A stretch of DNA of 15,755 bases from a virus (IMGVR_UViG_2545824742_000009), one strand, 5' to 3'; numbered from the stretch's first letter, positions 1,134-15,755 are shown. A program made the numbers and translations. Notes: a model not told the origin generated them from the sequence alone.

Positions 1134-1886
1134 TTATCTTGTCACATTTCTCAATTGTATCTCTGCATATGCTTCTTCCTGCCAGCACTTTGTAACCAGT
1201 TTATCAATGACATCTGCATATCCTTTGTACCACTGATAATCCGTCAGGTCTGGTACCAGCTTCTGGACATGATGCCGCGCCAGTGTGGTTGGTAAACGGC
1301 TAAACCGGTTTCCATTGCAACGCCCACAAATCTTATAAACAGGCGTGCCATGAAGCCGGGTCCTTTTTTCATCCAGGACAATACCTTTACCCTTACACCC
1401 TCTGCACGCTGTGCTGACTTCTCCCTTACCATGACAATGCTGACATAGTTCCTTCACCCACTCTTCCTTGATAACAGATTCCCCGCTTCTGGAGTGTTTC
1501 ACCACTTCGCGCAATACATTATGAAATCCAGTACCAGCACAATGCTCACAGCGAGCCTTACTTGCCGCAGACCTGGAATAATCAGCAAAGGCAAAATTCA
1601 CAAGGTAAGGGATGATCTGTAACCGGGTTTCTTCACTCAATTTGTTCAATGTCGGGTTATCCAGTGCCATCGCGTAATTGAGCAGACCTTCAATCGCAAA
1701 TTGAGGATCCTGAACACCAACTTTTGCCAGGAATAAGGCAAACCCAAGCGGTGCTTTCGACTGCACCATCCCCTGCGCAGCCATCACATCTGTAATTGTT
1801 AAACCACCCGAGCCTGTCGCCGGTGCGTCATCACTCAATTTTGGAGATTTTGGGGAGTAATATTTTGGTAAGGCTTCAAGGTTCAT
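1134..1886 (-). CDS. Q-like late-gene antitermination protein with DnaJ-type zinc-finger repeats
   Basis: 250 aa with four CxxCxGxG repeats (CEHCAGTG, CQHCHGKG, CRGCKGKG, CGRCNGN). Sits downstream of a DUF968 gene and upstream of a promoter/terminator unit, as for QuuQ-type Q proteins. Family assignment is from memory. Confidence 0.6.
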   Translation of the reverse strand: MNLEALPKYYSPKSPKLSDDAPATGSGGLTITDVMAAQGMVQSKAPLGFALFLAKVGVQDPQFAIEGLLNYAMALDNPTLNKLSEETRLQIIPYLVNFAFADYSRSAASKARCEHCAGTGFHNVLREVVKHSRSGESVIKEEWVKELCQHCHGKGEVSTACRGCKGKGIVLDEKRTRLHGTPVYKICGRCNGNRFSRLPTTLARHHVQKLVPDLTDYQWYKGYADVIDKLVTKCWQEEAYAEIQLRNVTR

Positions 1887-1899
1887 GCTCGTTCTCCAC

Positions 1900-2895
1900 T
1901 TACGCCAGTACGCCTATTGCCAGCGCACGATCGATAAAACGAAATATCAGCTCCAGCTGGGAGCCATACTTCTCTTCAAATGCCACGGTATCCGCATGCA
2001 GCTCGTCGTGATGCTTTCTGCACAAAGGCAACACAAAGAGGTCATGCGCTTTTGTTCCCATTCCACCCTGACCGTGACCTATCAGGTGGTGGGGATCATC
2101 AGCGGGCTTTCCACAACATGCACACGGCTGTGTCTTAACCCAGCGCGTGTACTTTTCATTAACCCAGCGGCGACGTTTTGGGCGTAACATAAAAGACTCC
2201 GGCGACTCCGGATCCACTTTCAGCGCCAGCACCTTTTTCGCTTTATCCTGGATGATGCTGGTGGCAGGAACCGAAGGCACAAGGTCACTTTCCCGGGTGA
2301 CAGACGGCACAACAGGCTTTGGTAATCTCAGTGCCTTACGGGCTGCACTTTCCGGTAAGGCATCCGCCAGGTCATTACGAATCAGCCACCAGCACAGTTC
2401 CGGCATTGTCACAACGTGACTGTCATCAAAACCGAGATCCCGACGCACAACAGACAACACCCAGCGGGCACAGTTATCCGTTGCCATTGATTCCAGCCGT
2501 TCCGTGAACTGATCGCGCAGCTGGTTATCACAGTGCCAGCACAGACGGATTGCGCCCGGCGCGTGTCGCATTGTGGTCATGTTCTCGCTGTGCCAGTCGG
2601 AATGAGGCCACTGGCAGCCTTTTTCACGAAGTAACCAGCTTTCAAGACATTCCACGCCACCAGCACGACGGATCACTGCCTCATTGCGGAACACAGCCCG
2701 AACGGCAGGATCATCCGCCAGCGGTTGTGATGCCGCCGGAACGGCACCACTGGCGAAAGATGAATAACGTTCCGGCTCAGGCTCCAGCAGGACACGCCCC
2801 TGCATAAACAGGGGCATCAGCTCTGAACCTGGCCTGAACAATACGATCCCCATACGCGGGGCAATTTCAGGGGTCAGTAGTGCTCTCACGGTCAC
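1900..2895 (-). CDS. DUF968-family phage protein with C-terminal Cys/His (HNH-like) motif
   Basis: 331 aa. C-terminus has CACCGK...HHLIGHG...CRKHHDELH. Position immediately upstream of Q matches Qin-prophage YdfU-like proteins. Confidence 0.55.
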   Translation of the reverse strand: MTVRALLTPEIAPRMGIVLFRPGSELMPLFMQGRVLLEPEPERYSSFASGAVPAASQPLADDPAVRAVFRNEAVIRRAGGVECLESWLLREKGCQWPHSDWHSENMTTMRHAPGAIRLCWHCDNQLRDQFTERLESMATDNCARWVLSVVRRDLGFDDSHVVTMPELCWWLIRNDLADALPESAARKALRLPKPVVPSVTRESDLVPSVPATSIIQDKAKKVLALKVDPESPESFMLRPKRRRWVNEKYTRWVKTQPCACCGKPADDPHHLIGHGQGGMGTKAHDLFVLPLCRKHHDELHADTVAFEEKYGSQLELIFRFIDRALAIGVLA

Positions 2896-2896
2896 C

Positions 2897-3706
2897 TCAA
2901 TGAACGGTATCGAGCAGCTTTAACAGCTCAGGGAATCGGGATTCGAAGAAATGCGGCTGCGTCTCGCGCGGATTTGCGGGACTGGTGATGTTCTTGCCGA
3001 ACATGCAGCCTTTCGCTGTCAGCGACCAGAATTTTTTGATGTTGTTAATCGAGGTACGGCTGTATCGTTCGCGTTGTTCAACGATCCCCAGCTTCGCCAT
3101 CTGGTGATATGCCTGATTAGCCGTAAGGCGGATACCATACTGTTTCAGCAGTGCACTCAGCGACAGCGTAGGGCGACTTGAGCCATCAGGCGCGTCAGCA
3201 GGAGCATCAATGGCATAGCGCGGTGCCAGATTCGGTAAGCCAACAGCCTCCTGGAGTTTCTGACAGGCCCCAAGCACAGATGAGTTAGACAGGTTTAACT
3301 CCCTGCGCATAAAGTCCAGCAGAATCACTCCAGCCTGCATCTTGTCAGCAGCCTGCCCGGATAATTTTTCCGGTGCGCTGGTTACCATATCGAAAGTACG
3401 GATCACCTTCAGATGGAATGACGGGCTGATCCACATTGCATAGGCATACACCAGTTCCTTACAGACATACGTCCCCTGGTTATTTCCGCCATTAATGACG
3501 CTAACTGGTTGATTTTGTTCCAGAGGCGGAATTCCACCCTCGGTGAAAAGTTGTTCAATCAATTCACAGGTTTGCTTATTGGAGAGCCAGTATTTCGGGC
3601 GGTTTTTTTGTTCTCCCCCGGCTGCCCTGTGCAGATCGTTCAGGCTGTAACGCCCATAAGCATCACGACGAACTTCAATACCATCAATAACCATCAGATT
3701 ATTCAT
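2897..3706 (-). CDS. KilA-N domain protein (putative antirepressor-like)
   Basis: 269 aa. N-terminus VIDGIEVRRDAYGRYSLNDLHRAAGG...RPKYWLSNKQTCELIEQL is characteristic of KilA-N/Bro-N-type domains. Start is 1 nt after the DUF968 start region. Confidence 0.6.
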   Translation of the reverse strand: MNNLMVIDGIEVRRDAYGRYSLNDLHRAAGGEQKNRPKYWLSNKQTCELIEQLFTEGGIPPLEQNQPVSVINGGNNQGTYVCKELVYAYAMWISPSFHLKVIRTFDMVTSAPEKLSGQAADKMQAGVILLDFMRRELNLSNSSVLGACQKLQEAVGLPNLAPRYAIDAPADAPDGSSRPTLSLSALLKQYGIRLTANQAYHQMAKLGIVEQRERYSRTSINNIKKFWSLTAKGCMFGKNITSPANPRETQPHFFESRFPELLKLLDTVH

Positions 3707-3725
3707 ACTTCGTTTCTCCTCTTAA

Positions 3726-4115
3726 TCAGGCGGCTGCACCCGCCGGTTTCTCATACTTACTGATAGTGATCTCGACCTTCCCTTTCGGGATAACCGGTCC
3801 CCACTCCACCAGCATTCTTTTCACCTGTCTGTCGTCTTCCCACACACCCGCGTGGGTCAGGGCGTCAAACAGCGCCTTGTTATAGTTGTCCAGATCGCGG
3901 ATCCGGTTATCCGGAGGAAACAACACGATCTCCACTGAAGCAGGTGCCGACGTTGGTTTTGGCAGACGACGTAACTGCTCAACTATTGCTGCGCACGCCG
4001 CGCTCTGAAATTTTCGCCCCGCCGCGCTTATCAGGCTCTTACCAGCAAATGCCCCTTTGTTGGGGTGTCGCCAGTAGGTGTTCACGCTGGGCGGGAAAGG
4101 CAGGATCAGCTTCAT
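3726..4115 (-). CDS. rusA: Holliday-junction resolvase RusA
   Basis: 129 aa. Motifs LPFPPSVNTYWRH, RDLDNYNKALFDALTHAGVWEDDRQV and GKVEITI match the RusA family as recalled from E. coli RusA. Confidence 0.88.
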   Translation of the reverse strand: MKLILPFPPSVNTYWRHPNKGAFAGKSLISAAGRKFQSAACAAIVEQLRRLPKPTSAPASVEIVLFPPDNRIRDLDNYNKALFDALTHAGVWEDDRQVKRMLVEWGPVIPKGKVEITISKYEKPAGAAA

Positions 4116-4438
4116 ACTTTCAGGCCTCTCTCATGTAACCAGTGAGTTGCACGCAGCCTTGCGTTTTCCTCACCGGCAAGCAGTGAGCGGATAATCCCGA
4201 CCGCCTCGCTGTCGTCGTCCTTCACCGCGGTATGAAGCGTGATCCCCCGGGCCACACCACGCTTTATCGTGATGACGCCTTTTTTCTCCAGTGCGCGAAG
4301 ATGCTCCACCGCTGCATTCACCGAACGGTATCCCAGCATGGTTGCCACCTCCTGATTGGTTGGCGGGAAGCCACGCTCTTTCTGATAAGAAATCAGCATA
4401 TCCAGCACCTGCTGCTGGCATTGAGTTAACGTCGTCAT
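4112..4438 (-). CDS. Small LexA-type DNA-binding-domain protein
   Basis: 108 aa. FPPTNQEVATMLGYRSVNAAVEHLRALEKKGVI resembles the LexA N-terminal winged helix. Start overlaps the upstream stop (ATGA) and its own stop overlaps the rusA start. Confidence 0.5.
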   Translation of the reverse strand: MTTLTQCQQQVLDMLISYQKERGFPPTNQEVATMLGYRSVNAAVEHLRALEKKGVITIKRGVARGITLHTAVKDDDSEAVGIIRSLLAGEENARLRATHWLHERGLKV

Positions 4439-5088
4439 GCCGCCATCTCCCTGACCAGCTTTTCCGCCTGCAGGCGAACCTGCGCCAGAAACGCCTCACC
4501 ACATGCCTCAAGTTCATCGCGCCCGATATAGCTGATTGCCGGTCCCTTCCAGGTCTTGTCGAAAACAGCAATAGCACCAGCGAAGAAAGCGCCTGTCGGC
4601 ACCTGCTTCTCATCCTTCGGGATAAACCAGGCAGGCAGTTCAAAACCAATACGCCCGCGAATAAAAGCAATATGATCTGCATCTTCCGGCCACCACACTT
4701 CGCTGGTGGCAGCTTTGATCAGGAAAACATAGCGCCCGCCCTTATCACGCATGGCACTGGCATGCTTCATGATGTAACGCATGCCGGTGATGTATTGCCC
4801 CTCATGCTGACTGGCGCGGCTGTATGGGGGATTTCCAAAGGCAGCACCTTTAAGCTCCGCAAGGCGTTCTGACCAGTCATGCGCCAGCGCGTTGTCTTCC
4901 GCCGTGTAATACGCAGCGCATTTGGCGTTATCACCGTCAGTGAACAGATCCAGAACAAACGGACCAAACAGGGTGTTAATTCCCCAGAAAATGTTGTCCG
5001 GCGTGCGCCACTGATCGCCCACTTCCTTCAGTTCATGGGCTGGTTTGTTCCGCAGTTCCACCAGCTCCTGGCAATATTTATTACTCAT
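4435..5088 (-). CDS. Phage DNA N6-adenine methyltransferase (Dam-like)
   Basis: Contains FGNPPYS (the (D/N)PP(Y/F) catalytic motif). Chosen start is ATG at 5086-5088 (MSNKY...), which overlaps the upstream TAA as TAATG; the ORF track extends to 5121. Confidence 0.8.
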   Translation of the reverse strand: MSNKYCQELVELRNKPAHELKEVGDQWRTPDNIFWGINTLFGPFVLDLFTDGDNAKCAAYYTAEDNALAHDWSERLAELKGAAFGNPPYSRASQHEGQYITGMRYIMKHASAMRDKGGRYVFLIKAATSEVWWPEDADHIAFIRGRIGFELPAWFIPKDEKQVPTGAFFAGAIAVFDKTWKGPAISYIGRDELEACGEAFLAQVRLQAEKLVREMAA

Positions 5089-5576
5089 TAAGCCCCCACG
5101 TAATTCCCTGACAGATACCACTCATCACCCGATACAGCGCGCTTGCTGCTTTTCCGTAAACACTGCTCACGACGCGCCAGAAAATTGTTTCGTTCTGGCT
5201 GGGAGTGGCTTTCACGGAATGCCGCCATCCACACCGTTGCAGCACGACGGTATAAGCCCCTGGACTCCAGTTCTTCAGCCTGGCGGGTCAGGCATAAAAT
5301 CTCCCGCGGGTCGTTAGTGCCGACATAGAAATTGCGCACAGGTCTGGTTTCACGAACTGGTTGCCGTTCCGCCTCCGGCGATATCTTTATCTGGCGCGGA
5401 AAATGTCTGCGTGTATCCCCTTCACAACGGTGAGCCACACGCCCACTCTGACGTAACTTGCTTGCTGACTGCAGAACGCGCTGCCGTGAGTAACCTGCAA
5501 AAGCATCCGCAATGTCTCCGGAAGTACACCCCGGATGGGCTTCAATGAATTTCTGAACTTCATTCAAAAGACTCAT
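5088..5576 (-). CDS. Hypothetical phage protein (162 aa); C-terminal part may resemble small ANR/PerC-like regulators
   Basis: ATG at 5574-5576 lies 2 nt after the upstream TGA; the ORF track uses GTG at 5582. Basic, Arg-rich protein with no enzymatic motif seen. The ANR/PerC resemblance is a weak recollection. Confidence 0.5.
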   Translation of the reverse strand: MSLLNEVQKFIEAHPGCTSGDIADAFAGYSRQRVLQSASKLRQSGRVAHRCEGDTRRHFPRQIKISPEAERQPVRETRPVRNFYVGTNDPREILCLTRQAEELESRGLYRRAATVWMAAFRESHSQPERNNFLARREQCLRKSSKRAVSGDEWYLSGNYVGA

Positions 5577-5578
5577 GA

Positions 5579-6397
5579 TCACCCCCTGAATCCTGCCGGG
5601 ATCTGGCTGTAGTCCACGTTGTCGTAACTGGCTTTGAAGTACGGGTCCTCACGTCTGGCTGCAGATACCGCAGGAACTTCCCAGGATTCTTCGAAATGAC
5701 GATCCGGACCAAAGAACGTGACAGCCTGTTTCACAAATTGTGTGCCGCTGTTACCCATCGCAGATACCCAGCCCGCATAGCGTTTCACACCTTCCAGCAT
5801 GGTTTCGGGGTTTACCCCCTCATTCAAACGGGCTTTCCAGGCTTTGAAGGCTGCAGATTTTGAATTGCCACCAGCACGTTTGGGATATGCCAGCCATGCC
5901 TGCTCAAACTCCGGAGAGTATTCCGGTCGGTTTGAACGAACTCGCACAGACTCATCAGCAGATGCACCAACAGCTATTGGTTCATTGACTGGTTCTTTGA
6001 CTGGTTCAAAAGAGTGACTGGTTCTGGGTGAATCTCCTGCACTACCCCCTAGTGCAACTCCTGCACTACCTGGTGAATTTGCTGCACCAGATAGTGAATT
6101 ATTTGCACTACCCCCTAGTGAATCTCCTGCACCATCCAGATGAAGGAGATAGATATTACTTGAGTTACCTTTTTCACCTTTCCGGGTGACTTTTTTTACC
6201 AGCCCGGACTCACAAAGGGCCGCAATATGATTCATCACAGAACGTTTGCTAATCTCGCACTGGTCAGCAATATGCTGGTAGCTGGGCCAGCACTCACCCT
6301 GATCGCTGGCATTATCAGCCAGCTTGATCAGAACCAGTTTTCGCAATGGATTACCCACTCGAATTTTCATCGCTTTAACCATCAGCTCCATACTCAT
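5579..6397 (-). CDS. Replication initiator-like protein (N-terminal HTH, Gly/Ser/Ala-rich linker encoded by iterons)
   Basis: 272 aa. N-terminal KLADNASDQGECWPSYQHIADQCEISKRSVMNHIAALCESGLV looks like a wHTH/replisome-organizer N-domain. The central low-complexity segment GDSLGGSANNSLSGAANSPGSAGVALGGSAGDSP is encoded by tandem DNA repeats. Confidence 0.6.
   Translation of the reverse strand: MSMELMVKAMKIRVGNPLRKLVLIKLADNASDQGECWPSYQHIADQCEISKRSVMNHIAALCESGLVKKVTRKGEKGNSSNIYLLHLDGAGDSLGGSANNSLSGAANSPGSAGVALGGSAGDSPRTSHSFEPVKEPVNEPIAVGASADESVRVRSNRPEYSPEFEQAWLAYPKRAGGNSKSAAFKAWKARLNEGVNPETMLEGVKRYAGWVSAMGNSGTQFVKQAVTFFGPDRHFEESWEVPAVSAARREDPYFKASYDNVDYSQIPAGFRG
6027..6200. repeat. Iteron-like tandem repeats plus adjacent AT-rich tract: candidate phage replication origin inside the initiator gene
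   Basis: Five or six direct repeats of about 21-24 bp containing TGCAC...(T)AGTGAA. GTGAAT/GTGCAA/GATGAA recur at about 6028, 6052, 6073, 6094, 6118 and 6139. Followed by an AT-rich stretch 6145-6200. Same layout as lambda ori within O. Confidence 0.55.
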
Positions 6398-6630
6398 GCT
6401 GCACCTCCGAGATGCTTCATGTTTTTTCCGGAGCGAAAGGCTATAAGCGGCATACTGACGCGGTAATTACGGCCCAGCGGTTCACAAATCACCTTCTGAC
6501 ATTCACGGTCAACCAGGCTGACACGTAGAACATGCCCTGCTGGCGTGGTGTACCACTGCCCAACTGTGGGTGTTGATATTTTTTTACGCTGAAATAAACG
6601 GTAAATGTTGAGGAGCAACGGATTAAGCAT
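6394..6630 (-). CDS. Small hypothetical protein (78 aa)
   Basis: ORF fills the gap between two genes in the same operon and overlaps both ends by a few nt. No motif recognised. Confidence 0.35.
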   Translation of the reverse strand: MLNPLLLNIYRLFQRKKISTPTVGQWYTTPAGHVLRVSLVDRECQKVICEPLGRNYRVSMPLIAFRSGKNMKHLGGAA

Positions 6631-7459
6631 GACGATGCCCTCCGCTGATATTCAGGAGACGGTGAATATGAAAATTAGCCTTATCCGCCAGACGAATACG
6701 TTCAGCTTGCAAGTTAAGAAGGGTTTCTACCAGAACCTGATGTGCCTGCGGATCCGAAAGAGTTACCTTGCGCAGAGCACGTAGTGCAGTTGTTACATAA
6801 CTGAGTTTATGTAAGTCTTCATCATTCAGACGAGTGAGGGCTGGGACAGTAGCCATGATGGCAGCCTCCTTGATCGGTGAAATACTTCCACCACCGGAAA
6901 CGCCAATTTCGCTGGTGGTGAACTGAACGGGGTTGGCGTAACCGGTGATCAAGGAAACCGGCGCATCTTTCGATGCCCCCGCCCAGCCCACCATAACTTT
7001 GATGTGAGCAAATGCGGACGATAAAAAAGACGCTGGCGCGTCATATATCGCCTTGATCAATTCCAGGACGCCAATCCCGGCACCCGCTTTATAAGGTGCC
7101 TGAACAGTGTAACGTCCCGGAATGGCAGAATCAATGTGCTGGTGGTCCTTCACACTCAACAAAATCACGCTTGAATTTCCACAAAGGACTAAAGCACTCA
7201 TGCGGGTAGTCTTTGCGAAGATAGATAACGCGCTGTGTTTCTGGCTCCCAACGAATAACATGAACATAAAGTCCTCTTCCGTCACGAAACCAGCGGTTAA
7301 GTTCCTGCACAACTCGCCCCCCACAGTCAGGTAAAGTTCTCTGTGGTTACTTACAGCCAGGAGATTTGGTAATCTGCATTCATGCCGTAACAACAGGTGT
7401 TCAGCGACGCTGACCACCAGCTGTTGCGACAAACGGTTATTTGCCGTTAAACTGTTCAT
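6623..7459 (-). CDS. Hypothetical phage early protein (278 aa), possibly YdaU-like
   Basis: Long ORF in the early-right operon whose start overlaps the upstream stop. No Walker A or other motif recognised. The YdaU analogy rests on size and position only. Confidence 0.5.
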   Translation of the reverse strand: MNSLTANNRLSQQLVVSVAEHLLLRHECRLPNLLAVSNHRELYLTVGGELCRNLTAGFVTEEDFMFMLFVGSQKHSALSIFAKTTRMSALVLCGNSSVILLSVKDHQHIDSAIPGRYTVQAPYKAGAGIGVLELIKAIYDAPASFLSSAFAHIKVMVGWAGASKDAPVSLITGYANPVQFTTSEIGVSGGGSISPIKEAAIMATVPALTRLNDEDLHKLSYVTTALRALRKVTLSDPQAHQVLVETLLNLQAERIRLADKANFHIHRLLNISGGHRHA

Positions 7460-8019
7460 GCGTTAGTTTCTCCACAGACACAAAACGCCACGACGCCCGG
7501 AGCTGCACACTCGCGGGCGTCACTCTTTTCTGGAGCGCAAAAGATTTTGTAGACCAGTGCTGCATGCTCCTGGAGCTTCGAAATTGACAGATACAACTCA
7601 TCATTAATTGCTGTCTGCTCGTGTGGCTCCACTACCCCATCTTCGATTGCCGAACGAATCTGCTTTGAGTAACTCCCGATCTGTTCGATGACTTCCAGCA
7701 GGCGCTGGTTTATATCGGCGTTCTCTACTTCCTCAATTTCAGGAAGCGATACAAACACCCCACCAGCAGACTGTGCGACAGCATCCGCAATGTAGTGAGT
7801 GCCAGCCGCGCGCTGTAAAATCATTGCCCATCCCAGCGGGAAAATCTGATCGCCATCTGCACGAAGGCGGTTGAATAAAGCGTTCTCTGTTACATCTAGC
7901 CACTCAGCAGCTTCAGCGTACCCCCCCGGCAACGCCGCGATAGTTTTTCTGACAGCTTTCACGTACCACTCAGGCTGTTTTTCTACTTTCCAGTGATGCT
8001 TACCCACGGTTAGCCTCAT
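7456..8019 (-). CDS. YdaT-like / CII-position regulatory protein
   Basis: 187 aa, immediately downstream of the Cro-like gene, the usual place for CII or YdaT-family proteins. Family call is by context and weak sequence recollection. Confidence 0.45.
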   Translation of the reverse strand: MRLTVGKHHWKVEKQPEWYVKAVRKTIAALPGGYAEAAEWLDVTENALFNRLRADGDQIFPLGWAMILQRAAGTHYIADAVAQSAGGVFVSLPEIEEVENADINQRLLEVIEQIGSYSKQIRSAIEDGVVEPHEQTAINDELYLSISKLQEHAALVYKIFCAPEKSDARECAAPGVVAFCVCGETNA

Positions 8020-8050
8020 CGTTCTGTGGTTAAAAATTGAAGGTGTTCTG

Positions 8051-8251
8051 TTAATCTTTCGGATAGATATCCGGTCTTAAGTCAGATTTCGTAATTGCAC
8101 CTGACGTGCATTGCTCAAGTTTTTTAGCCAGCACAAAACTGGCTTTTTTATAACCATTGAAAACCAGCCGTAAATAGCCTGGTGTTGAGCCAACTTTTCC
8201 GGCCAACTCGCCCTGCTGTTCTTTGGTTAAAGAGTCCCAATACGCTTTCAT
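8051..8251 (-). CDS. cro: Cro-like repressor (YdaS/Cro family HTH)
   Basis: 66 aa from ATG at 8249-8251: MKAYWDSLTKEQQGELAGKVGSTPGYLRLVFNGYKKASFVLAKKLEQCTSGAI... GGAGG lies 10 nt upstream. The longer track ORF (to 8554) overlaps cI and is rejected. Confidence 0.7.
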   Translation of the reverse strand: MKAYWDSLTKEQQGELAGKVGSTPGYLRLVFNGYKKASFVLAKKLEQCTSGAITKSDLRPDIYPKD

Positions 8252-8341
8252 ACAATATGTACCTCCGATATACATATTACATGATTGAGATGAACCTTCA
8301 AGATACTTGTACCCTATCGGTACAAAGGTTTTAATTTCGTT
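8252..8341. promoter_or_regulatory. Divergent immunity-region control region with operator palindromes and PR-like / PRM-like promoters
   Basis: 19-bp palindromes ATGTACCTCCGATATACAT (8257-8275) and TTGTACCCTATCGGTACAA (8307-8325). Minus-strand PR candidate TTGAAG-16-TAATAT with the operator overlapping the -10 and the cro SD. Plus-strand PRM candidate TTGTAC-16-TTTAAT ends 6 nt before the cI ATG, with no SD (leaderless-like). Confidence 0.55.
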
Positions 8342-9016
8342 ATGAAAACAGTCCATGACATCCGGCGGTCTAACGCCAGAAAACTGAGAGATGGTGTTGG
8401 CGGGAATTCTTCCTTTGCCACCATGATTGATCGCGAGCCAACCCAGACCAGCAGGTTTATGGGAGATGGTGCTACTAAAAATATCGGTGACAGCATGGCA
8501 AGGCACATCGAAAAATGTTTCGACCTGCCTGTCGGATGGCTTGATCAAGAACACCAGACCACGAACATCACAAAAAAACCTGATGTTTCAATCACTAACA
8601 AACAAATAACGTTAGTCCCTGTCATATCATGGGTACAGGCCGGAGCATGGAAAGAAGTTGGCTATTCTGAGGTTGATTTGAGCACAGCAGAAACTTATCC
8701 CTGCCCTGTACCCTGTGGCGAAATGACTTATATCTTGCGGGTGATTGGTGATTCAATGATTGATGAGTACCGCCCGGGAGACATGATTTTTGTTGATCCT
8801 GAAGTCCCTGCCTGCCACGGTGACGACGTTATTGCATTGATGCACGATTCAGGCGAAACCACCTTCAAGCGGTTGATAGAAGATGGAACACAGCGTTATC
8901 TCAAAGCATTAAACCCAAACTGGCCTGAGCCTTACATTAAGATTAACGGTAATTGCTCTATAATTGGTACAGTGATTTTCTCGGGAAAACCAAGAAGATA
9001 CACAATAAAGGCCTAA
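8342..9016 (+). CDS. cI: CI-type prophage repressor (HTH plus S24 LexA-like peptidase domain)
   Basis: 224 aa. C-terminal domain has GDSM (Ser nucleophile) and FKRL (Lys general base), typical of S24 autocleaving repressors. Divergent from the Cro-like gene. Confidence 0.85.
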   Translation: MKTVHDIRRSNARKLRDGVGGNSSFATMIDREPTQTSRFMGDGATKNIGDSMARHIEKCFDLPVGWLDQEHQTTNITKKPDVSITNKQITLVPVISWVQAGAWKEVGYSEVDLSTAETYPCPVPCGEMTYILRVIGDSMIDEYRPGDMIFVDPEVPACHGDDVIALMHDSGETTFKRLIEDGTQRYLKALNPNWPEPYIKINGNCSIIGTVIFSGKPRRYTIKA

Positions 9017-14531: not shown

Positions 14532-15755
14532 TCAGTTGAGGTCTAAGCTAGCACAAGTAACGATCGATTCAACCCTATCCCACCACGCCTGGTAGGCTTT
14601 ACGCTGTTCTTCTAGATAATCGCTCTTGTCATAAACCTGCCAAACCCCTGGCAGTTTATGGCCGAGCATTATTTCTGCAATATGAGGAGCAGTAAGATCA
14701 GAAAAATTTGTTCGTGCTGTTCGCCTCAAATCATGAAGAGACCAATGAGGGAATTGATACCCCAAACGCCGCCATGCGTACTGCATTAAATTGTAAGGCA
14801 GCGACTGCAATGATGTTCGACCAACGGGTTCCCTGCTTCCTTCCTTAGTAAAAAGCATATCGGAACCATTGTTCATAGAGATAGCGTTCTTTATAAGCTC
14901 TTCCACCGGTTCAATAATGGGCCGCTTTAGCGGTTCGCCCGTTATCTCCCCAGTCTTATGTCGTTCAGGTGGTACAGTCCATACCTTATTAATGAAATCA
15001 AAATCGTCCACCCTAGCAGTAATTAGCTCTGAACTACGACAGCCAAAATGCAGCAATAGCTTAATGAAGGCCCGGTATTTAGGAACCATTCGAGAACCAT
15101 CGATCGCAGCATAAAGGATTTTAATTTCATCATGTGTCAGAAACCGTTTCTTCTGACCTTTACGGATATCCATATCTTTACCCGTGATATCCGACAGCGG
15201 GCGAGTTTCAATGAGCTTTCTCTTATACGCCCAGACATGGGCCTGCTTTGCGTTAATTAGCAATCGGTCTGCTATTGCTGGAGTCTTAGTGCTAAGAGGC
15301 TCCAGGACTTCTAACCAATCATGCAATGTAGCTGCATCGTGAGGGATATTCCCGATTTTAGAAAACAGGTGCAGCTCAAACGAGCGGAGTATCTGTTCAG
15401 AACCTTTTTTATTTTTTACACAATATGCTTCATACCAGGCACGGATCACAGACTCTACCGTCATGGCCTCAGTAGCTTTTCGTTTTTCAGCCTGCTTGAC
15501 CAATCGTGGATTACGGTTTGACTCAAGTTCACCACGGAGACGGATAACTTCTTCTCTGGCCTCTTTTAATCCAGTTGCCGGGTAAGTTCCGATATCAAGA
15601 CGCTCACCTTTCCCTGCCCATTGATAACGATATTGGAACACTACGCGACCTTTCGGTGATACTCTGACAGACAGACCATCACGATCGGATTTAACCAAAA
15701 CCTTATCACGTTCCTTTCCAACGACTGAACGCAACCACGCATCAGACAGCGCCAT
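14532..15755 (-). CDS. int: Phage tyrosine integrase (N-terminal DUF4102-type arm-binding domain plus catalytic domain)
   Basis: 407 aa. HxxR box (WSLHDLRRTART) and a C-terminal Tyr region (VWQVYDKSDY). N-terminus DGLSVRVSPKGRVVFQYRYQWAGKGERLDIGTYP is typical of P4-family integrases. Start codon is the last three bases of the window. Confidence 0.9.
   Translation of the reverse strand: MALSDAWLRSVVGKERDKVLVKSDRDGLSVRVSPKGRVVFQYRYQWAGKGERLDIGTYPATGLKEAREEVIRLRGELESNRNPRLVKQAEKRKATEAMTVESVIRAWYEAYCVKNKKGSEQILRSFELHLFSKIGNIPHDAATLHDWLEVLEPLSTKTPAIADRLLINAKQAHVWAYKRKLIETRPLSDITGKDMDIRKGQKKRFLTHDEIKILYAAIDGSRMVPKYRAFIKLLLHFGCRSSELITARVDDFDFINKVWTVPPERHKTGEITGEPLKRPIIEPVEELIKNAISMNNGSDMLFTKEGSREPVGRTSLQSLPYNLMQYAWRRLGYQFPHWSLHDLRRTARTNFSDLTAPHIAEIMLGHKLPGVWQVYDKSDYLEEQRKAYQAWWDRVESIVTCASLDLN

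What the first reader, a model, noticed from the sequence alone, without database searches (positions are those of the whole stretch)
6027..6200. Iteron array and AT-rich tract inside the initiator gene: probable phage origin
Five to six direct repeats with a 21-24 bp period (about two helical turns) lie within the coding sequence of the HTH initiator-like protein and are followed by an AT-rich stretch. This is the classic lambda-type arrangement of ori within the O gene. The repeats also encode a Gly/Ser/Ala-rich interdomain linker.
Basis: seen in the sequence. Interest (0 to 1): 0.45.

Follow-up and report, generated by a model that had tools for sequence, protein, structure and literature searches.

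The report
Phage replication origin inside initiator gene
Five palindromic repeats inside a prophage replication-initiator gene, plus an adjacent DNA motif that stays nearly identical across very different phages, look like that phage's replication origin; the layout resembles phage lambda's but uses an unrelated initiator protein.

Summary
Five 19-bp repeats (6026-6134, spacing 24/21/21/24) lie in the linker-coding part of a 272-aa HTH_36 initiator gene (5579-6397, minus strand). The gene belongs to an E. coli lambdoid prophage of the Stx-phage "Eru6" replication type.

Each repeat is an internal palindrome, T(A/G)GTG(C/A)A-N5-T(T/G)CAC. Codon choice keeps this symmetry far beyond what the peptide requires (28/35 pairs against 12.9±2.4 in synonymous recodings).

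All relatives examined keep the same plan: a winged-helix N-domain, then 1-10 palindromic iterons in a fixed register. The iteron half-site changes together with the recognition helix, and the same iteron is read in different frames.

Its synonymous sites are almost invariant: codon identity is 0.97, against 0.43 in the N-domain. It recurs from Enterobacterales to an Arthrobacter phage, where it is read in three frames.

It is modest, encodes the Lys/Asn-rich wing, and shows no DNA-level conservation.

Best reading: a bipartite, lambda-like in-gene origin. The protein is not a lambda O homologue, and the region from cI to Q encodes no helicase or loader. Function is inferred, not shown.

The parts
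5579..6397 (-). Initiator gene (272 aa): N-terminal winged helix, disordered linker, helical C-terminal domain
   Evidence: ORF and translation. Pfam HTH_36 E=1.8e-11 and weak DnaD_N. PHROG 270 and 8540, 'replication initiation (O-like)'. 99% identical to phage cdtI, Stx2c phages and Stx2a_WGPS2, the Eru6 representative (PMC8951638).
6134..6397 (-). Coding region of the N-terminal winged-helix DNA-binding domain (aa 1-88); predicted recognition helix at aa 51-64 (SKRSVMNH...)
   Evidence: AlphaFold2 pLDDT 80-91 with an H-H-H-H-strand-strand topology. Foldseek hits are generic winged helices, including DnaD-N and RepA_N initiators.
6116..6134 (.). Iteron 1 (promoter-proximal), coding strand TGGTGCAGGAGATTCACTA
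   Evidence: dyad 5/7.
6092..6110 (.). Iteron 2, TAGTGCAAATAATTCACTA
   Evidence: dyad 6/7.
6071..6089 (.). Iteron 3, TGGTGCAGCAAATTCACCA
   Evidence: dyad 6/7.
6050..6068 (.). Iteron 4, TAGTGCAGGAGTTGCACTA (perfect 7-bp arms)
   Evidence: dyad 7/7.
6026..6044 (.). Iteron 5, TAGTGCAGGAGATTCACCC, directly abutting the constant element
   Evidence: dyad 4/7. The position 19 nt upstream of AGAACC is conserved in relatives.
5978..6025 (.). Constant element, coding strand AGAACCAGTCA-CTCTTTT-GAACCAGTCA-AA-GAACCAGTCA-AT-GAACCA. It holds three GAACCAGTCA direct repeats (6015-6024, 5998-6007, 5986-5995) read in two frames (RTSH and EPVK/EPVN). Proposed core of the origin.
   Evidence: repeats. (one codon per residue across 10 phages). 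(present in 70/80 protein-defined relatives, variants in 9 more; codon identity 0.97 against 0.43). (P=1e-5 given the peptide). (distant relatives).
6135..6200 (.). It encodes the end of the recognition-helix region and the wing (VKKVTRKGEKGNSSNIYLLHLD). It remains a possible but unsupported unwinding region.
   Evidence: GC 0.32-0.38 and the least stable 40-mers of the gene. Relatives are also about 0.09 below gene GC here, but the value tracks host GC and synonymous sites vary freely.
5582..5950 (-). Coding region of the C-terminal domain (aa 150-272). This exchangeable module presumably recruits the replication machinery.
   Evidence: PHROG 26426, 3729 and 1701, 'DnaD-like helicase loader' C-terminus. 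Shared with phiP27 L17 and Stx1a phages that have a different N-domain. Natural chimera P0072.

Best explanation
This is the replication origin of the prophage, embedded in the gene of its own initiator.

Proposed mechanism:
- Dimers of the N-terminal winged-helix domain bind the five 19-bp palindromic iterons (6026-6134). The iterons are spaced about two helical turns apart, so the dimers would sit on one face of the DNA and build a lambda O-some-like nucleoprotein complex.
- The adjoining constant element (5978-6025, GAACCAGTCA direct repeats) is the invariant core of the origin. It is most likely where the duplex is opened and the helicase is loaded, or a second initiator contact, possibly on single-stranded DNA.
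- The exchangeable C-terminal domain recruits the helicase. No phage helicase or loader gene lies between cI and Q, so this phage would have to use the host DnaB/DnaC system.
- The gene sits in the rightward early operon downstream of cro and cII, so transcription passes through the origin as in lambda.

Shown: the anatomy, DNA-level selection on both elements, family-wide conservation and co-variation.

Inferred: protein binding, origin activity, the site of melting, and the route of helicase recruitment.
For: (1) Each repeat is an internal palindrome, and the pattern occurs only here in the window.

(2) Synonymous recoding of the same peptide gives a dyad score of 12.9±2.4, with a maximum of 23 in 20,000 trials per codon model. 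The observed score is 28/35. The symmetry is therefore encoded in codon choice and not forced by the linker peptide.

(3) The same plan appears in every relative examined: 10 phages, 85 distinct viral contigs, and 80 bacterial genomes chosen by N-domain peptide patterns only. In that last, unbiased set the mean dyad score peaks at exactly -19, -43, -64, -88 and -109 from the constant element (4.5, 5.5, 3.8, 3.3, 3.7). The background is about 1.75.

(4) Both arms of the palindrome change together between lineages (GTGCA/TGCAC, GGGCA/TGCCC, TGCCA/TGGCA, GTGAC/GTCAC, GTGTAA/TTACAC, GTAGGCC). Each half-site class goes with one recognition-helix class across 131 distinct origins. An Arg at helix position 7 goes with GTGAC in several separate N-domain lineages.

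(5) The same iteron is translated in different frames: GSAGDSP here, VVQQIHQ in PseuP_222. Periods of 22+23 bp restore the frame.

(6) Iterons travel with the N-domain when C-domains are swapped (mosaic; chimera P0072).

(7) Iteron number varies from 1 to about 9-10 among near-identical proteins, as lambda-type origins vary between 4 and 6 (PMC7466680).

(8) Constant element: invariant residues use a single codon in 10 phages, while N-domain residues use 2-6. Codon identity is 0.97 against 0.43 in 65 protein-defined loci. GAACCAGTCA is read in two frames here and in three frames in Arthrobacter phage Abidatro, where GAA is otherwise rare.

(9) This is the only recognisable replication gene between cI and Q.
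Against: - No experiment exists, and no paper in the searchable library describes an origin for this family.
- Co-variation of helix and iteron is confounded by physical linkage, since they lie 100-200 bp apart.
- There is no strongly AT-rich unwinding region. The flanks have GC 0.32-0.42, against roughly 0.2 in lambda by my recollection.
- No DnaA box lies near it, and no promoter-like site lies in 5500-6700.
- Palindromic initiator sites could serve autoregulation, copy control or exclusion instead of, or as well as, initiation.
- The conserved peptide RTSHSFEPVxEP lies in a disordered region and could also be a short linear interaction motif.
- No helicase or loader gene is present, so the loading route is unknown.
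Confidence: 0.75

Rival explanations
1. The repeats are initiator-binding sites that do not form the origin. They would act as operators or roadblocks for autoregulation, as handcuffing or copy-control sites, or as exclusion determinants, and initiation would happen elsewhere in the phage.
For: Palindromic sites bound by dimers are typical of operators. Iteron arrays in plasmids also act in incompatibility and copy control (PMC6854812, read). There is no strong AT-rich region and no DnaA box next to the array.
Against: No other repeat array or initiator-type site exists in the 15.7-kb early region. The array always abuts a second, deeply conserved cis element. That is hard to explain for a simple operator located inside a coding region about 260 nt from the start codon. 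The analogy with lambda and RepA_N in-gene origins also favours an origin.
Confidence: 0.12
2. The constant element is conserved as the crossover joint for exchanging N- and C-terminal modules, or as a short peptide motif in the linker that binds a partner protein. It would not be part of the origin.
For: Mosaic boundaries fall exactly there (query 413-819 against 100-395; chimera P0072). The peptide lies in a predicted disordered segment, where linear motifs occur.
Against: A peptide motif does not explain near-total synonymous invariance. It also does not explain the same DNA repeat being read in two or three frames, or amino-acid changes such as RTSHS to RISNS being tolerated while the DNA stays close. 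A neutral recombination joint would not survive where N-domain synonymous sites are saturated. In L193 both repeats changed in concert to GAATCTATCA, which suggests one reader of both copies.
Confidence: 0.1
3. The repeats are only a by-product of a low-complexity Gly/Ser/Ala linker that expands by slippage, with no function at the DNA level.
For: The segment is a disordered linker, and copy number varies among close relatives.
Against: The dyad symmetry lies more than 6 SD above synonymous recodings. The register is conserved while the peptides differ completely (GSAGDS, GGAGAA, PMPPDG, PSDKMSP, VKITPP). Both arms change in concert, and frames are switched.
Confidence: 0.03

Closest known systems
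Phage lambda ori inside gene O, and the Stx-phage variants with six iterons
   Same: An array of about 19-bp iterons with internal dyad symmetry at a period of about two helical turns. The array sits in the middle of the initiator gene, between an N-terminal DNA-binding domain and a C-terminal recruitment domain. Iteron number varies between relatives and adds residues to the protein (PMC7466680, read). The gene lies in the rightward early operon.
   Different: The protein is not in the Phage_rep_O family (no hit). There is no P-like loader gene downstream. There is no 40-bp strongly AT-rich tract. In its place is a constant element of GAACCAGTCA direct repeats, shared by all iteron specificities.
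RepA_N initiators of Gram-positive plasmids (pSK41, pTZ2162) and the Vibrio PLE RepA
   Same: A DnaD-N-like winged-helix N-domain binds semi-palindromic iterons, and the C-terminal domain is variable and host- or partner-specific (PMC7145576, read). Weak fold matches to 4pql, 4pt7, 5kbj and 2v79. From my own knowledge (Weaver et al. 2009), many RepA_N plasmids carry the origin inside repA.
   Different: No RepA_N Pfam hit. Fold matches are only at E of about 0.02-0.08. The iterons do not converge on a poly-A tract. A constant GAACCAGTCA element is not described for RepA_N.
pHW126/pIGRK plasmid origins (conserved region CR plus four iteron-like repeats)
   Same: A bipartite origin: a short region conserved across the whole family next to four roughly 20-bp repeats at a 22-bp period. 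Both parts are required, and both are bound by a winged-helix Rep dimer (PMC6854812, read).
   Different: That origin lies outside the rep gene. No sequence relationship was tested or seen. Those plasmids are thought to replicate by rolling circle.
Eru6 replication unit of Stx phages (Stx2a_WGPS2)
   Same: The window gene is 99% identical to it (H17-H19). The gene order is the same: a Rha/Ash gene, then the HTH_36 gene (PMC8951638, read).
   Different: That paper classifies the proteins only. It mentions no iterons and no replication origin (0 occurrences of 'iteron'; the 4 hits for 'origin' are not replication origins).

Membership tests
Lambda-type in-gene origin (works like) | At least four direct repeats of about 19 bp with internal dyad symmetry, at a period of about two helical turns | tested here: met
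   Five 19-mers with spacing 24/21/21/24 and dyad scores 4-7 of 7.
Lambda-type in-gene origin (works like) | Array located inside the initiator ORF, between the DNA-binding and recruitment domains | tested here: met
   The array encodes aa 88-124, in a segment with pLDDT below 50 between two folded domains.
Lambda-type in-gene origin (works like) | Adjacent strongly AT-rich unwinding region | tested here: inconclusive
   The 5' flank has GC 0.32-0.38 and the 3' constant element 0.42, against 0.50 for the gene. Both flanks are about 0.10 below gene GC in 146 origins. Neither approaches lambda's level. Some low-GC relatives have A-tracts 3' of the constant element.
Lambda-type in-gene origin (works like) | The initiator binds the iterons, and the fragment supports initiator-dependent replication | not testable with these tools
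   Indirect evidence only: helix and half-site co-variation, and co-inheritance with the N-domain.
Lambda O protein family (Pfam Phage_rep_O) | Sequence membership in Phage_rep_O | tested here: not met
   A Pfam scan at E<=0.01 lists HTH_36, DnaD_N, B-block_TFIIIC and HTH_20 only.
Lambda O/P replication module | A helicase-loader (P-like or DnaC-like) or helicase gene next to the initiator | tested here: not met
   The downstream genes are PerC-like, Dam, LexA-like, RusA, KilA-N, DUF968 and Q. Relatives do carry DnaB-like, primase-helicase or P-like genes.
HTH_36 (PF13730) / PHROG 270 and 8540 phage replication initiators | Profile match above the curated cut-off | tested here: met
   HTH_36 scores 44.1 bits against a cut-off of 25. 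phrog_270 E=2e-88 and phrog_8540 E=2e-61.
RepA_N plasmid initiators | RepA_N profile match, or close structural match of the N-domain | tested here: not met
   No Pfam hit. Foldseek to 4pql, 4pt7 and 5kbj only at E 0.03-0.07, among many generic winged helices.
Eru6 replication unit of Stx phages | Near-identity to the representative Stx2a_WGPS2 HTH_36 gene, with a Rha/Ash gene upstream | tested here: met
   99.0% identity over 819 nt. An Ash-domain ORF lies upstream at 6623-7459. The type is defined in PMC8951638.

The most novel reading that the evidence does not exclude
HTH_36-type initiators may share a previously undescribed bipartite origin. One part is a lineage-specific array of palindromic iterons read by the recognition helix. 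The other is a universal core of AGAACC(A/G)TC(A) direct repeats, kept almost to the nucleotide from Enterobacterales, Pseudomonas, Vibrio and Shewanella phages to an Arthrobacter phage.

The core does not depend on iteron specificity, on the helicase type, or on the reading frame. It would be the site where the invariant part of the initiator (or a universal host factor) opens the DNA or loads the helicase. It would also act as the fixed joint at which N- and C-terminal modules are exchanged.
Probability: 0.4. Interest if true: 0.65.

Novelty: new variant of a known kind. Interest (0 to 1): 0.5.

Why it matters
Replication of Stx and other lambdoid prophages drives toxin gene dosage and phage spread. 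For the "non-lambdoid" Eru replication types, the two papers that define and classify those types (PMC8044961, PMC8951638) describe no origin.

This gene type is common. At least 80% of it is present in 896 of 5,426 complete E. coli genomes, and it has 5,427 protein clusters of relatives.

A sequence rule now predicts the origin and its specificity class in all of them: the iteron array ends 19 nt upstream of AGAACCAGTCA. The rule suggests which prophages should compete for or share initiators. It also gives concrete fragments for replication, binding and unwinding assays.

The constant element is also a clear case of a coding sequence shaped by a DNA signal: one codon per residue, and multiple reading frames.

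Tried and rejected
- DnaA boxes: two matches in the window, none near the gene, no more than chance.
- Sigma-70 promoter inside the origin, as an internal primer or activation promoter: none in 5500-6700.
- Rfam: no RNA family over the repeats. The only hits are C4 and isrK, about 800 nt upstream.
- Small plasmids carrying only this gene, as a natural test of replicon function: the plasmid hits are 25-54-kb phage-like circles or large replicons, so they are not informative.
- Literature: no paper in the searchable library contains the constant-element sequence or links HTH_36 to a phage origin. Weigel and Seitz 2006, which may discuss such modules, is not held.
- The "P27" studied in PMC7466680 has lambda-type iterons and a lambda-type O protein, so it is not this initiator family.
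- Solved structures: no relative by sequence. Fold search gives only generic winged helices.
- Host-factor reading of the constant element: considered less likely because the motif persists in an actinobacteriophage and because both copies changed in concert in L193. It is not excluded.
- A sixth repeat: none at the next register position (sequence).

Full report
CONTEXT. The window is the early region of an E. coli lambdoid prophage.
- It runs from an integrase (14532-15755, minus strand) through a cI-like S24 repressor (8342-9016, plus strand) into a minus-strand rightward operon.
- The operon carries a cro/YdaS-like gene, a CII (CP76) gene, a Rha/Ash gene, a 78-aa ORF and the HTH_36 gene 5579-6397. 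These are followed by PerC-like, Dam, LexA-like, RusA, KilA-N, DUF968 and antiterminator Q genes (1134-1886).
- The HTH_36 gene is 99% identical to genes of phage cdtI, many Stx2c phages and Stx2a_WGPS2. Stx2a_WGPS2 is the representative of the "Eru6" replication type (PMC8951638). That paper and its predecessor (PMC8044961) mention no iterons.
- No helicase, primase or loader gene lies between cI and Q, so this is the only recognisable replication gene.

OBSERVATION.
- Tandem Repeats Finder and the repeat finder both report the array: 6028-6132 with score 84, and five copies with spacing 24/21/21/24.
- On the coding strand the units are TGGTGCAGGAGATTCACTA, TAGTGCAAATAATTCACTA, TGGTGCAGCAAATTCACCA, TAGTGCAGGAGTTGCACTA and TAGTGCAGGAGATTCACCC.
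- Each is a 19-mer with 5-7-bp inverted arms around a 5-bp spacer. The core pattern occurs five times, only here, against 0.07 expected.
- There are five copies, not six.
- They encode a Gly/Ser/Ala-rich stretch that AlphaFold2 leaves disordered: aa 91-157 have pLDDT below 50. This stretch lies between a confident winged helix (aa 1-88) and a helical C-domain.

DNA SIGNAL OR PROTEIN REPEAT? Three tests point to DNA.
- Recoding test. I recoded the same peptide with synonymous codons 20,000 times per codon model. The summed dyad score was 12.9±2.4 with a maximum of 23, against 28/35 observed.
- Different peptides, same design. Relatives encode completely different linker peptides (GGAGAA, PMPPDG, PSDKMSP, VKITPP and others) from arrays of the same design.
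- Different frames. The same iteron is read in another frame in Pseudomonas phage PseuP_222: VVQQIHQ instead of GSAGDSP. There, 22- and 23-bp periods add up to 45 and restore the frame.

FAMILY-WIDE ARCHITECTURE.
- I collected relatives in three ways: by blastn/tblastn in phages, by a DNA pattern in viral contigs, and by N-domain peptide patterns only in one genome per species. The last route does not depend on the repeats. It gave 365 relatives, of which the best 80 were kept.
- In that unbiased set, the mean palindrome score of 19-mers peaks at exactly -19, -43, -64, -88 and -109 nt from a fixed downstream landmark. The scores are 4.5, 5.5, 3.8, 3.3 and 3.7, against a background of about 1.75.
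- Half-sites fall into classes: RGTG(C/A)A, GGGGCA, RTGCC(A/G), GTGAC, GTGTAA and GTAGGCC. In every class both arms changed together.
- Each class goes with one class of the predicted recognition helix across 131 distinct origins.
- Arg instead of Asn at helix position 7 goes with GTGAC in several separate N-domain lineages.
- This co-variation is what binding by the gene's own N-domain predicts. It is confounded by close linkage, so it is supportive and not proof.
- Modularity agrees with binding by the N-domain. N-domain plus iterons are shared with phages that have other C-domains, and the C-domain is shared with phages that have other N-domains. Protein P0072 is a natural chimera joined exactly after the array.
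- Near-identical proteins carry 1, 2, 5, 7, 8 or about 9-10 iterons.

THE CONSTANT ELEMENT. The fixed landmark is 5978-6025: AGAACCAGTCA-CTCTTTT-GAACCAGTCA-AA-GAACCAGTCA-AT-GAACCA.
- Frames. It has three exact direct repeats. The first is read as RTSH and the others as EPVK/EPVN, so they are in two frames.
- Codon use in ten phages. In ten phages from five host genera, invariant residues of the N-domain use 2-6 codons each. R, T, H, S, E, V and E of this element each use a single codon.
- Protein-defined set. 70 of 80 loci carry the 27-nt core with at most 5 mismatches, while the best match in control flanks has 10. Nine of the other ten carry variants, and L188 is cut off by its contig end. 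The variants are a shorter spacer, three tandem copies followed by an A-tract, or both copies changed in concert.
- Codon identity. Given the same amino acid, codon identity is 0.97 in the element against 0.43 in the N-domain core. The element was located by DNA match, which adds some circularity.
- Chance. Given the peptide, three GAACCAGTCA copies arise in 1 of 100,000 recodings.
- Distant relatives. More distant relatives keep it in modified form: mEp554, Psychrobacter Y8A, Pseudomonas phi2, a Massilia replicon, and 15-bp GAYCCGTCA arrays in the phiP27 type.
- Arthrobacter case. In Arthrobacter phage Abidatro (69% GC), AGAACCGTCCTT-GAACCGTCCTT-GAACCGTCCAGTA-GAACCATCC is read in three frames and uses the locally rare GAA codon.
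- The element is therefore under selection at the nucleic-acid level. It is tied to this initiator family and not to a particular iteron class, helicase type or host.

THE AT-RICH TRACT.
- 6135-6200 is the least stable part of the gene: GC 0.32-0.38, about the 4th-10th percentile of the window.
- It encodes the Lys/Asn-rich wing, which can explain its composition.
- In relatives this flank is about 0.09 below gene GC, but it follows host GC and its synonymous sites vary freely.
- The constant element on the other flank is equally depressed (-0.10), and most so in high-GC hosts.
- Read along the gene, lambda's AT-rich region follows the iterons. The corresponding position here is the constant element. 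Which flank melts cannot be decided by computation.

MECHANISM (inferred).
- N-domain dimers bind the iterons.
- The constant element is the site of opening or loading, or a second and possibly single-strand contact.
- The C-domain resembles the C-termini of PHROG "DnaD-like helicase loader" and "primosomal" families. It would recruit the host helicase system, because the phage encodes none.
- Relatives with other C-domains sit next to DnaB-like, primase-helicase or P-like genes.

COMPARISON.
- It works like lambda ori in gene O and like RepA_N in-gene origins. Its "conserved region plus iterons" logic resembles pHW126/pIGRK plasmids.
- It is not a member of the lambda O or RepA_N protein families.
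- No relative has a solved structure.
- I found no description of this origin in the searchable literature. Subscription papers could not be checked.

VERDICT. The origin interpretation is well supported in its core and corrected in its details. I rate it a new variant of a known kind, of moderate interest. The main new point is the constant element, and all functional statements await experiment.

Noticed in passing
window 6911-6998 (-) and 7023-7099 (-): Rfam matches above gathering score to C4 antisense RNA (82 bits) and isrK Hfq-binding RNA (64 bits). Both lie inside the long ORF 6623-7459, whose product carries an Ash domain. This looks like a P1/P7-type immI (c4-icd-ant) antirepressor module just upstream of the replication gene. 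The 5' part of that ORF may not be coding.
   Followed up: no
window 1134-9016: The whole interval from cI to antiterminator Q contains no helicase, primase or helicase-loader gene. Relatives of the initiator sit next to DnaB-like, primase-helicase or P-like genes. How this 'initiator-only' module loads a helicase is unexplained.
   Followed up: partly
window 6394-6630 (-): A 78-aa ORF (PHROG 1153, unknown function) overlaps the initiator start codon by 4 nt (ATGA), which suggests translational coupling. Similar small ORFs precede the gene in cdtI and Salmonella phage 118970_sal3 but not in all relatives.
   Followed up: no
The count in the region is no more than chance (2 found, 1.1 expected).
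   Followed up: no
proteins P0040, P0029, P0019, P0003, P0001, P0018; L001 3001-3885: Near-identical initiators differ only in repeat number: 1, 2, 5, 7, 8 or about 9-10 iterons. The steps are often 66 bp (three iterons). One variant has a fourth EPV/GAACCAGTCA repeat.
   Followed up: partly
protein P0072: A natural chimera. The N-domain and iterons are of the TGCC(A/G) class (PMPPKS-type linker). They are fused to the window's C-terminal domain exactly at the constant element.
   Followed up: partly
L217 1501-2295 (Arthrobacter phage Abidatro): In a 69% GC actinobacteriophage, an HTH protein only 39% identical in the N-domain carries GGGGTGAAC-type repeats. These are followed by four AGAACCGTCC direct repeats at an 11-13 nt period, read in three reading frames.
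   Followed up: partly
L011 2393-3319 (phiP27 L17) and L216 1429-2370 (vB_EcoM-689R6): A subfamily with a different N-domain but the same or a similar C-domain lacks the palindromic iterons. It carries arrays of 15-bp GAYCCGTCA-type repeats instead, as if the constant-element repeat had been expanded.
   Followed up: no
L193, L194, L206, L208: Variant constant elements. A Shewanella prophage has both copies changed in concert to GAATCTATCA. Aliivibrio prophages have three tandem AGAACCAGTCA copies followed by AAAAAATATAAAAAAATC.
   Followed up: no
window 5088-5582 (-): The gene downstream of the initiator is a PerC/ANR-like regulator, annotated yfdN in RefSeq E. coli genomes. The last 76 nt of the initiator gene plus this gene are shared at 96-97% identity by many prophages whose replication genes are otherwise different.
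   Followed up: no
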